64,000 bases of DNA from Octopus vulgaris (Eukaryota). Below, piece by piece: positions 5,901 through 8,900 of this stretch. Each line of letters opens with the position of its first letter. Position 1 is the stretch's first letter. The translations under genes were made by a program, and so were the position numbers. The notes under the pieces were generated by a model. It saw only the letters and a list, made by a program, of their open reading frames with translations. It was not told the DNA's origin and ran no database searches. The DNA is taken from the NCBI GenBank assembly GCA_951406725.2, contig OX597840.1:9362001-9426000 (forward strand), in the 5' to 3' direction.

Positions 5901-8900
5901 GGCACGCTGATAGGCTCCCGCGAAAAGATCCACTGCTAGGAACTGGCCGGGGGCAGGCGTCCACGGGGATGGTCGGCGGCCCAGGTCAATGAAGCAGTCC
6001 TCATCGTTAGATGAGGGTGGTGAGTCGCGGAAATACGCACCCAACCGGTGCGGCGCACAAAGCTGTGGACATCAGCTCGCGTCTGGAATTCCTTACAGGA
6101 TGGAGTGAGGGGGATGAAACGCAGACCCCTACTAAGGACGGAGCGTTCCGCCGCAGAGAAGGGAAGATCGGGGGGAATGGTAACAACAGACGGAAGTGGA
6201 GAAGGGGTGGGTGGAATAGAAGTATGAGGGGTGGATGGAATGGGAGTAGAAGTGGTAGGGCTGGTAGAGGTCTGAGGGGGAGGGATATGTATATATAGGC
6301 GTAGGAGAGTTGTGTGGTAAGTAGCTATAGGCGTAGGAGTGGCTGTGTGGTAAGTAGCTTGCTTACCAACCACAGGGTTCCGGGTTCAGTCCCACTGCTT
6401 GGCACTTTGGGTAGGTGTCTTCTACTATAGCCTCGGACCGACCAAAGCTTTGTGAGTGGATCTGGTAGACGGAAACTGAAAGAAGCCCGTAGTATATATG
6501 TATATATATATATTTATATATATATAAATATATGTGTGTATGTATATATATATATGTATGTACGTGTGTGTATATGTTTGTGTGTCTGTGTCTGTCCTCC
6601 CAACATTGCTTGACAACCGATGCTAGTGTGTTTACGTCCCCGTAACTTAGCGGTTCGGCAAAAGAGACCGATAGAATATGTACTAGGCTTACAAAGAATA
6701 AGTCCTGGGGTCGATTTGCTCGACCAAATGCGGTGCTCCAGCATGGCCACAGTCACGTGACTGAAACAAATAAAAGAGTAAAAGAGTAAAAACAGCAAAT
6801 GAAGTATGATGAAAGGAAAAATAGTAATTGTAGACGAACTTTAATTCCATTCAATTCCAAGTTGGTACAGAACCAATACTTATTCTACAAATTGTTTCCA
6901 TTAAGTTTCCTTTTTCGGTCTCTAGGAATTTATCTCAAACTATTTCTTCTATTAATGAAAAGAAATTATCCAGTTTTTATCTTCGAGATAATTTGGTTAA
7001 TATTGGGTTGTCCGGAAAGTTCGTGCCGAATTTTAAAGGAAAGAAAAAGGTCAATAAATACATGCCATTACATTTTAATCAACCAAATATGAACCATTTT
7101 GTTGCACAATGCGTCTCCATCTTTCCTTTAACTTGAAAATACTCGCTTCCCAGATTTGTGGCGGTTTCATGGCAAAGAATTTCATCAAGGTGTCTTTTTA
7201 CGTCATCCAAGGAATTGAAATTTTTACCATTAAGACTATTCTGCAGAGACCTGAATAAGTGGAAATCCGAAGGAGCAATATCTGGTGAATATGGAGGGTG
7301 GGGTAACACATCCCAGCCGAACTGCGGCAATTTTTGTCTGGTTCCCAAAGCATCAAGTGCCGAAAATGAACTTTCTTATCTTCCATTTTAAAGGGTTACA
7401 TAATTAACACAGGTTATAGGAACATAAACCTTCTTCCACGAAAAGATAGCTTAAACTGTGCTCTAAATGGAGGTGTAGTCAAATTCCTATTTAATGGACT
7501 CAACCATTTTCTAAAATAAGTCGAACGTTAAGCTACAAAAAATCGGCATGAACTTTCCGGACAACGCAATATTAGCGAGATTTGCAGCTGTAATTTAATA
7601 ACACTCAAATGCATAAATTTAATAAGAATTTTATATTTACAGACTTATAAAGATAAGTTTGTTTTAAATATTTTTCCAGATTGCGCCAATGCTCAGATCG
7701 ATCTTGTTTTCGTTATTGATTCATCTGGAAGTGTTGAAAAGCCTGACTTTGAGAAGACAAAAAACTTCTTGGAAAATATTGTGTTTAATCTAGACATTGG
7801 TCCAGATAAGACACGTGTTGCAGTGATTAGATTTGCAAACGATCCTCACGTAGCTTTTTCCTTAGGAGACCACAGTACGAACTTTGCAGTAAGACAGGCT
7901 ATTAAGGCTATCACCTACGATGGTAGTGGTACTGCTACGGACTTGGCTCTTGACAAAACACATATCAGTGTCTTTACAAATAAAAGAAAATCTGTTGCTG
8001 CAAAAGTTTTAGTTTTGGTCACAGATGGAAAGTCAAATAGTGAAAATAAAACAGTAGCGGCAGCTCAGAAACTGAAAGATGACGGCGTTATTATATTTAC
8101 AATTGGAGTTGTCAATCCAAAAGTGTCTGAGTTAATTGCAGCAGCAAGTGAACCCAGTTGTACACATTTCATCGTCTTGAAAGATTATGATGCGATTGGT
8201 TTTATTGTGAAGGAAATTGAATCTGATTCCTGTAAAGGTAAGTCTCACGTCTAATAATTTTCATTATCTGTGGTGGTGGTAAGCGGCGAGCTGGCAGAAT
8301 CGTTAGCACACCGGGCGAGATGCCTATCTGTATTTCGTCTACCACTATGTTCTGAGCTCAAATTCCGCCGATGTTGACTTTGCCTTTCATCATTAAATAA
8401 GTACAAGTTATGCACTGGGTTCGATGTAATCGACTTAATCCCTTTGGCTGTTCTTGTTTGCCCTCTCTATGTTTAGCCCCCCGTGGGCAATAAAGATATG
8501 TATATATATATATATATATATATATATATATATATATATATATATATATATATATATATACATATATATATATATACATATATATATACATATATATCTG
8601 TAAACCTGTGAAGTTTCGTCCCTAAGTATGTATATACATGCATTACGTCTCCTCGTGGGGCTTCTAAAAGTCAGTTCTATCATGATGAGCAGGTTTTTAT
8701 AAACTTGTATCCCCAGGTATCCCTCTTCTTCGCCATTTCCTCTATGGGGCACATATATTTATATATTTTCTTTTGTTTAACTGCTATGTTGTGCCTCCTT
8801 AAATGTCACCTTCTGTTTCCAGCTCCGACCGTTGTCCAAACACAGACTCAGTTACGCAACGTCGCCATTCCAAAAACGAACGAGACAAAACAACAAGTCC

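What the first reader, a model, noticed from the sequence alone, without database searches (positions are those of the whole stretch)
7680..8237. VWA head diverges about three times faster than the rest of the paralogs
Hand alignment with 62116-62676 gives ~41 substitutions plus 1 indel in 186 aa (~77% identity). The other shared exons show ~31 differences in ~450 aa (~93%). Changes come in runs ([10 protein letters not shown] vs [16 protein letters not shown] vs [15 protein letters not shown] vs GQSDNEIR), several beside MIDAS residues that stay invariant. Inference: diversifying selection on a ligand-binding face (immune, gamete or self-recognition). An alternative is gene conversion that homogenises everything except the head.
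Basis: partly seen in the sequence, partly recalled or inferred. Interest (0 to 1): 0.72.

Follow-up and report, generated by a model that had tools for sequence, protein, structure and literature searches.

The report
Selected binding face in octopus paralogs
In a cluster of about 15 octopus genes for predicted cell-surface and chitin-attached proteins, the differences between copies concentrate in the loops around the metal-binding site of one adhesion (VWA) domain, likely because selection keeps different binding surfaces while DNA exchange between copies evens out the rest; the binding partner is unknown.

Summary
In detail: the VWA exons of the two inverted paralogs differ at 41 of 185 residues plus one indel, against 45 of 611 in the other 11 shared exons (3.0x, p=1e-7). 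Flanking introns (5-6%) and purely synonymous codons (7% vs 6%) are not raised. The pair belongs to 15 paralogs on contig C27: signal peptide, lysozyme-fold domain, VWA, beta-sandwich repeats, then a GPI-like or chitin-binding tail. Codon models find positive selection in the VWA exon (2dlnL 142, omega about 5 at 18% of codons; 26 null simulations gave 3-63), mostly on MIDAS-face loops (17 of 25 sites). The strictest model cuts this to 10.6. Two corrections: family-wide the VWA exon is not faster (its 3' half is the most homogenised exon), and this head is the conservative one, closer to an O. bimaculoides head (83%) than to its neighbour (77%). Selection and conversion act together, a known pattern; earlier unreviewed notes of this scan report it for PARP14 and protocadherin arrays in this genome. 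I found no paper on this family. Ligand and tissue are unknown; a host-microbe interface is my best guess.

The parts
7680..8237 (+). Gene A VWA exon (phase 1-1, 558 bp), complete MIDAS D13-x-S15-x-S17, T84, D115
   Evidence: Pfam VWA E=5e-42; boundaries; spliced to both neighbouring exons in contigs of 3 runs
7721..7753 (+). MIDAS-face loop betaA-alpha1 (residues 14-24); selected sites 19, 20, 21, 24
7835..7849 (+). betaB-betaC hairpin (52-56); selected sites 53, 54, 56
7907..7948 (+). Loop carrying the MIDAS Thr (76-89); selected sites 78, 80, 83, 85, 88; site of the indel vs B
8024..8053 (+). betaD-alpha5 loop (115-124); selected sites 117, 119, 122
8108..8194 (+). betaE and betaF top loops (143-149, 165-171); selected sites 147, 165; lies in the homogenised 3' half
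7000..7575 (.). High-copy element of about 575 bp with terminal inverted repeats, ending about 100 bp before the A VWA exon; A lacks the upstream intron block shared by five paralogs
   Evidence: (2079 candidates, 40 scored, 92-95% identity)
2670..2958 (+). Gene A exon 2: second part of the lysozyme-fold N-domain (the signal-peptide exon lies about 4.8 kb before the window)
8823..31928 (+). Gene A body exons: 8823-8947, 9779-10013, 11551-11675, 12362-12596, 18322-18405, 19662-19783, 21789-22023, 24425-24508, 27694-27777, 28428-28549, 31018-31255, 31845-31928; four beta-sandwich repeats of about 120 aa with Cys linkers
33981..34087 (+). Gene A last exon: Ser/Thr stretch and terminal hydrophobic tail (GPI-signal-like, inferred)
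62116..62676 (-). Gene B VWA exon (561 bp)
62680..63139 (-). Intron block upstream of the B VWA exon, only 1.4-4.3% different among G1, G2, G3, G6 and B: part of the conversion tract
42044..55232 (-). Gene B body and tail exons: 55108-55232, 54016-54250, 50387-50511, 49465-49699, 46950-47033, 46173-46294, 44872-45109, 43348-43431, 42044-42150
63951..64000 (-). 3' end of gene B exon 2 (rest beyond the window)

Best explanation
Genes A and B are intact members of a 15-copy octopus cluster whose VWA exons differ mainly in the loops around an invariant metal-binding (MIDAS) site, likely because selection favours and preserves different ligand-binding surfaces while gene conversion homogenises the scaffold, the introns and the gene bodies. 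Shown: the counts, the family, splicing of A, exon-by-exon tree conflict, the site-class signal. Inferred: the symmetric VWA exon with its upstream intron moves between gene bodies as a cassette. Some heads (A, G4, B) are then held by purifying selection, while the B/G6/G1-G3/G5 lineage gained many loop changes. Most likely function (about 45%, untested): GPI-tethered or chitin-tethered proteins at an epithelial surface, where a catalytically dead lysozyme-fold domain binds glycan and the MIDAS face binds acidic protein ligands of microbes or parasites, which drive the diversification.
For: Pair: dN 3.4x higher in VWA, pure-synonymous and intron divergence flat. 14 paralogs (own GY94 code, NEB): M1a-M2a 2dlnL=142, omega2=5.07, p2=0.18; M8 vs M8a 142; five other exon sets 2.5-15.6. 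It survives GTR (131), multi-hit codons (64) and segment-specific trees (93-107). 26 of 26 null simulations with mosaic trees, half with multi-hits, gave 3-63 vs 138 observed. Independent alpha/beta grid with double hits: 8 sites, 7 on top loops; alpha equal on and off the face (0.91 vs 1.05), beta doubled (1.02 vs 0.47). 17 of 25 selected sites lie in 54 top-face residues (p=1.7e-5; vs bottom loops p=0.018); 20 of 41 A-B differences (p=0.003). Among G1, G2, G3, G6 and B, top-face pN is 0.09-0.29 against 0.014-0.043 in the adjacent intron, in 10 of 10 non-independent pairs. Conversion: synonymous distance between the two tail classes is 0.086 in the VWA 3' half vs 0.38-0.40 in the 5' half, exon 2 and the b exon. 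Every exon set rejects the ML trees of the other exons (AU p<0.003); PHI p=5e-4. Across species, A groups with an O. bimaculoides head (UFBoot 97) and G4 with another (95), while exon 2 groups A, B and G6 (97). An O. sinensis model carries a B-type head (178/186) on a G2-type body.
Against: With multi-hits plus whole-codon rate variation the LRT falls to 10.6 and omega2 to 2.0. The top face as one class has omega 1.32, not significantly above 1 (2dlnL 2.5); for A-B alone top-face pN 0.18 is about equal to NG86 pS 0.17. I drew the loop windows from DSSP and known VWA topology after seeing the site list, and had no coordinates. All exons have M0 omega 0.74-0.90, so constraint is weak everywhere. 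VWA data do not reject A+B+G6 head monophyly (AU p=0.26), so the donor and direction of head exchange are unresolved. Silent-only PHI (15 sites) and the near/far synonymous test (p=0.15) are not significant, and only 3 of 91 pairs reach Bonferroni 0.045 for shared tracts. Other species were compared as proteins only, from predicted gene models. There is no ligand, tissue or anchor evidence.
Confidence: 0.7

Rival explanations
1. Neutral mosaic: exposed loops are simply unconstrained, and patchy conversion plus multi-nucleotide changes mimic positive selection.
For: M0 omega is 0.74-0.90 in all exons. Null simulations give nominally significant LRTs up to 63. The strictest model leaves 10.6. 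Top-face omega 1.32 is not significantly above 1.
Against: The observed LRT is more than twice the largest of 26 nulls. Bottom loops, also exposed, have omega 0.49. Top-face pN exceeds adjacent intron divergence about 3- to 16-fold. The A and G4 faces are conserved with O. bimaculoides at 15/25 and 19/25 hypervariable sites.
Confidence: 0.15
2. Older coalescence only: conversion homogenised everything except a whole old VWA exon, with no selection for difference.
For: A's head is closer to O. bimaculoides (83%) than to B (77%). A lacks the shared upstream intron block, replaced by an inverted-repeat element that could hinder exchange.
Against: Pure-synonymous A-B divergence in the exon (0.070) equals that of the body (0.062). 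Flanks are not raised. Alpha is not higher on the face.
Confidence: 0.08
3. Same evolutionary process, but the role is structural: matrix or cuticle proteins (like Pif/BMSP or mussel PTMP1) whose heads pair with different self partners.
For: Mollusc homologues and five cluster members carry CBM14-type tails. PTMP1 and collagen VI are top structural matches. Very deep contigs for G9/G10-type copies in two runs, though depth is a poor measure of expression.
Against: Recurrent omega>1, pseudogenes and copy turnover are more typical of conflict (established knowledge). A and B have no CBM14; no LamG was found.
Confidence: 0.2
4. Gamete- or self-recognition locus under balancing selection on alleles.
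For: A GPI-like tail and a variable ligand face fit a recognition protein.
Against: The main contigs of three runs from three studies show 0 differences from the A exon (contigs drop rare variants and one run may be the source animal). The B and G4 heads are 185/186 identical in O. sinensis.
Confidence: 0.08

Closest known systems
Peak of divergence under gene conversion (red/green opsin exon 5; Fawcett and Innan review PMC3924837, passages read)
   Same: Duplicates homogenised in introns and most exons, with an island of replacement differences at functional sites.
   Different: About 15 copies rather than two; several discontinuous loops; whole heads appear to move between bodies.
MHC, plant R-gene and self-incompatibility families (conversion plus diversifying selection; PMC3924837 passages)
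   Same: Clustered paralogs and pseudogenes, patchwork exon, selection on the binding surface.
   Different: Diversity here is between paralogs; no allelic hyperpolymorphism was seen at A in limited data; no immune role shown.
Integrin alpha-I, collagen VI, PTMP1 and TRAP VWA domains (PfTRAP selection PMC9319867, passages)
   Same: Rossmann VWA fold (Z 27, rmsd 2.0, 179 aligned to collagen VI alpha3 N2) with a complete MIDAS; in PfTRAP the VWA domain is also the positively selected part.
   Different: 22-30% identity; different architecture; TRAP variation is allelic in a parasite.
Molluscan VWA-CBM14 proteins Pif/BMSP (PMC11291548, passages)
   Same: Secreted VWA plus chitin-binding domains in the CBM14-tailed members and non-octopus homologues.
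   Different: Extra lysozyme-fold N-domain and beta-sandwich; no LamG detected; A and B replace CBM14 with repeats and a hydrophobic tail.
Cephalopod protocadherin arrays (PMC9068888, passages)
   Same: Tandem duplication with homogenisation by conversion in coleoid clusters.
   Different: Unrelated fold; the site-level selection signal here is on a MIDAS face.

Membership tests
VWA domain with functional MIDAS | VWA fold | tested here: met
   Pfam E=5e-42; AF2 model of the O. sinensis B-type protein, Z 27 to collagen VI
VWA domain with functional MIDAS | DxSxS...T...D residues | tested here: met
   Complete in 14 of 14 G000 heads and 21 of 22 heads overall
VWA domain with functional MIDAS | Metal-dependent ligand binding | not testable with these tools
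   Needs a binding assay
Multigene family under diversifying selection with conversion | omega>1 site class robust to recombination | tested here: met
   weak (10.6) under the strictest model
Multigene family under diversifying selection with conversion | Sequence exchange between paralogs | tested here: met
   AU tests, painting, half-exon synonymous contrast; silent-only PHI not significant
MHC-like or allorecognition locus | High allelic polymorphism at the binding face | tested here: inconclusive
   A head identical in the main contigs of 3 runs; the B middle part was not covered in 4 runs
Pif/BMSP family | VWA + CBM14 + laminin G architecture | tested here: not met
   No CBM14 in P0005 or P0009 and no LamG in any of 6 proteins scanned
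Pif/BMSP family | VWA falls in the Pif/BMSP clade | not tested
   No tree with Pif sequences was built
Collagen XII/XIV (database auto-name) | Gly-X-Y triple helix and FN3 repeats | tested here: not met
   No collagen or fn3 family in 6 proteins; none visible in the sequences
Lysozyme/SLT superfamily (N-domain) | Lysozyme-like fold | tested here: met
   44 of 50 rows align to residues 22-195, mostly lytic transglycosylases, muramidases and lysozymes; best Z 8.9, rmsd 3.1, 121 aligned (modest Z); agrees with the Atlas lead
Lysozyme/SLT superfamily (N-domain) | Catalytic Glu after the first helix (position equated from the recalled ES..G motif) | tested here: not met
   Glu in 0 of 14 octopus proteins (Gln in 13) vs 17 of 30 other homologues
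GPI-anchored proteins | Signal peptide plus terminal hydrophobic tail without a cytoplasmic part | tested here: inconclusive
   Tail hydropathy 2.0 at the C-terminus; no GPI predictor available

The most novel reading that the evidence does not exclude
Octopuses have built a diversified recognition repertoire on a VWA scaffold: a one-exon, in-frame 'head cassette' with six variable loops around a MIDAS is swapped between membrane-anchored and chitin-anchored bodies that carry a dead lysozyme domain, giving an undescribed molluscan family of microbe or parasite receptors (or decoys).
Probability: 0.25. Interest if true: 0.78.

Novelty: new member of a known kind. Interest (0 to 1): 0.52.

Why it matters
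Cephalopod recognition receptors are poorly known. This gives a concrete, testable candidate: an uncharacterised family with about 20 named residues under selection on a single ligand face, and both static and fast-changing heads to compare. The evolutionary mechanism itself is textbook and, by unreviewed scan notes, recurs in other arrays of this genome, which limits the surprise.

Tried and rejected
Assembly artefact or allelic haplotigs: rejected. The genes are inverted, have different intron insertions and exon counts, and O. sinensis records match each (A body b exon 78/78, B head 185/186). 'VWA faster everywhere': rejected. Synonymous hitch-hiking beside selected codons: the pairwise means looked supportive (0.106 vs 0.041), but minimal counts gave 7/31.7 vs 7/54.0, p=0.15; dropped. 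'B and G6 heads were imported from G-type genes': not established (AU p=0.26). Selection in other exons: nominal p 0.0004-0.29, but within the null range, so not claimed. Left out of the codon models: frameshifted G14, the frameshifted G15 exon 2, and G6 for the signal exon. No RNA holder is on record as RNA, so tissue is unknown; the B-specific middle was not covered in 4 runs. The 7079-7372 frame had no Pfam hit; its mariner likeness is recalled. The representative search was swamped by multi-VWA proteins. Literature: 10 searches, including five LOC ids (0 papers), found no description of this family. Albertin 2015 was not held, and no supplements were read; these could list the cluster. No complex prediction was run, as there is no candidate partner.

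Full report
Setting. The window is G000:C27:9362001-9426000 of a 2.8-Gb genome. The only close relatives of the VWA exon are Octopus proteins (15 of 16 hits). The window holds two tail-to-tail genes, A (+) and B (-), both with open frames and canonical splice sites: 984 and 810 aa. Contigs of three runs from three studies join A's VWA exon to the preceding and following exons exactly at 7679 and 8237 (RNA status is the tool's guess).

Observation. A and B differ at 41 of 185 VWA codons plus one indel, and at 45 of 611 codons elsewhere (p=1.2e-7). dN is 0.119 vs 0.035, NG86 dS 0.117 vs 0.063 (p=0.07). The apparent dS rise comes from multi-hit codons: on codons with the same amino acid it is 0.070 vs 0.062. 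The VWA intron flanks (0.064, 0.052) are ordinary. The excess is therefore amino-acid-changing and local.

Family. Fifteen loci with 60-100% VWA identity lie between C27 8.09 and 10.70 Mb; the next hits are at 36% or less. Each has a signal exon, an N-domain, one VWA exon and one or more beta-sandwich units of about 120 aa. The tail is either hydrophobic (8.08-10.38 Mb; none was found for G9 in the fetched DNA) or CBM14-type (10.48-10.80 Mb). Gastropod, bivalve, chiton and cuttlefish homologues have N-domain + VWA + beta unit + CBM14-type tail. The repeats-plus-hydrophobic-tail form was seen only in Octopus among these hits. The N-domain has a lysozyme-superfamily fold (best Z 8.9; Atlas lead). 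The presumed catalytic Glu is absent from 14 of 14 octopus proteins and present in 17 of 30 others (the position is equated from a recalled motif). The beta unit resembles PPC domains, a lead only (TM 0.66).

Selection. With my own GY94 code on 14 heads, M2a beats M1a by 142 (omega 5.07 at 18% of codons) and M8 beats M8a by 142. The five other exon sets give 2.5-15.6, though all exons have M0 omega 0.74-0.90. The signal stays at 131 with GTR, 64 with multi-hits and 93-107 with 2-6 segment trees, but falls to 10.6 (omega 2.0) when whole-codon rate variation is added. In 26 simulations without positive selection but with eight mosaic trees, half with double hits, the statistic was 3-63 against 138 observed. 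An independent alpha/beta grid keeps 8-12 sites and shows equal synonymous rates on and off the face. Using DSSP of an AF2 model of a B-type O. sinensis protein (pLDDT 85) and standard VWA topology, 17 of 25 sites fall in the 54 MIDAS-face residues (p=1.7e-5) and 3 in 34 bottom-loop residues. The windows were drawn after seeing the list, and no coordinates were available. The face as a single class has omega 1.32, not significantly above 1.

Conversion. Family-wide the VWA exon is not the fastest: tree length is 3.35 vs 3.53 for exon 2. Between the two tail classes, pure synonymous distance is 0.38-0.40 in exon 2, the VWA 5' half and the b exon, but 0.086 in the VWA 3' half. About 450 bp of intron before the exon differs by 1.4-4.3% among G1, G2, G3, G6 and B, whose exons 2 differ by 20-30% between body types; in the same pairs top-face pN is 0.09-0.29. 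Each exon set rejects the ML trees of the other exons. PHI is significant for VWA on all informative sites, not on 15 silent ones. Tract tests are weak (3 of 91 pairs at Bonferroni 0.045). Direction is unresolved: VWA data allow A+B+G6 monophyly (p=0.26). A lacks the shared intron block; an inverted-repeat element ends about 100 bp before its exon. That may reduce exchange, which is an inference.

Other species (proteins only). A's head is 154/185 identical to an O. bimaculoides head and shares 15 of the 25 hypervariable residues (other G000 paralogs share 2-9). The two group at UFBoot 97; G4 pairs with a second O. bimaculoides head at 95; exon 2 instead unites A, B and G6. Polarised on that outgroup, top-face changes are 3-4 on A's side and 11-16 on the side of B, G6, G3 and G1. 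B and G4 heads are 185/186 identical in O. sinensis, whereas the G6-like body there has a head only 161/186 identical, and a G2-like body carries a B-type head. So the flagged exon is the conservative head, and heads appear to move between bodies.

Mechanism and function. Shown: the island of replacement divergence, the exon mosaic, the site-class signal. Inferred: selection for new and then distinct ligand faces, opposed by conversion elsewhere. This is the 'peak of divergence' pattern described for opsins and the conversion-plus-selection pattern of MHC and R genes (PMC3924837, passages). The ligand is unknown. I put a microbe or parasite interface at about 45%, a structural matrix role at 20-25%, dietary ligands at about 15% and gamete or self recognition at about 10%. 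The A exon had no differences in the main contigs of three runs. A VWA domain under diversifying selection has precedent in PfTRAP (PMC9319867, passages). The genes are not collagens despite their database names and do not fit the Pif/BMSP architecture (PMC11291548, passages). PMC9068888 and PMC13076209 (passages) gave no mention of this family under the terms searched.

Novelty. Ten literature searches found no account of the family; Albertin 2015 and all supplements were not seen. Unreviewed notes from this scan describe the same pattern in PARP14 and protocadherin arrays of this genome, and none covers this locus. Verdict: real, well-supported evolutionary signal in an uncharacterised family; a new member of a known kind; interest 0.52.

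Noticed in passing
window 14180-17380 (-), 1-1861 (+), 57156-58964 (-): LINE with an uninterrupted 1066-codon frame (endonuclease + RT) in an intron of gene A; a 97% identical partial copy at the window start and an older 74% copy in gene B.
   Followed up: partly
G000:C27:9252116-9315846: G6 has no adjacent signal-peptide exon. An orphan one lies 63 kb upstream on the same strand with the whole of G5 between them on the opposite strand: a nested gene or an inversion.
   Followed up: no
G000:C27:10648361-10648917 and 10693428-10693730: G14 has a frameshifted VWA exon and G15 a frameshifted exon 2; possible pseudogene donors for conversion.
   Followed up: partly
P0002; G000:C27:8079264-8165658: A public gene model appears to fuse two separate paralogs (G3 and G1) into one 837-aa protein.
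   Followed up: partly
L098-L100, L092-L093, L096: Paralogs with lysozyme-fold domain and CBM14-type tail but no full VWA in the fetched DNA (C27 10.72-10.74 Mb with a 37-aa VWA remnant; C27 12.23 Mb; C1 77.29 Mb).
   Followed up: partly
window 62100-62400, runs X7 and X9: Contig depths in the thousands to tens of thousands for the shared 3' half, with junctions of G9/G10 type; may mark a tissue where the family is very abundant, but depth is a poor measure and tissue is not on record.
   Followed up: no
window 18322-24508: Gene A has one extra four-exon module that B lacks; module number varies widely across the cluster.
   Followed up: partly
window 19932-20716 and 29393-30353: Tandem units of about 158 bp from a retroelement-like fragment, at the same position in two duplicated introns.
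   Followed up: no
P0001 (O. bimaculoides): The model carries two different heads (A-type, then G4-type) in tandem, as the symmetric exon phase would allow.
   Followed up: partly
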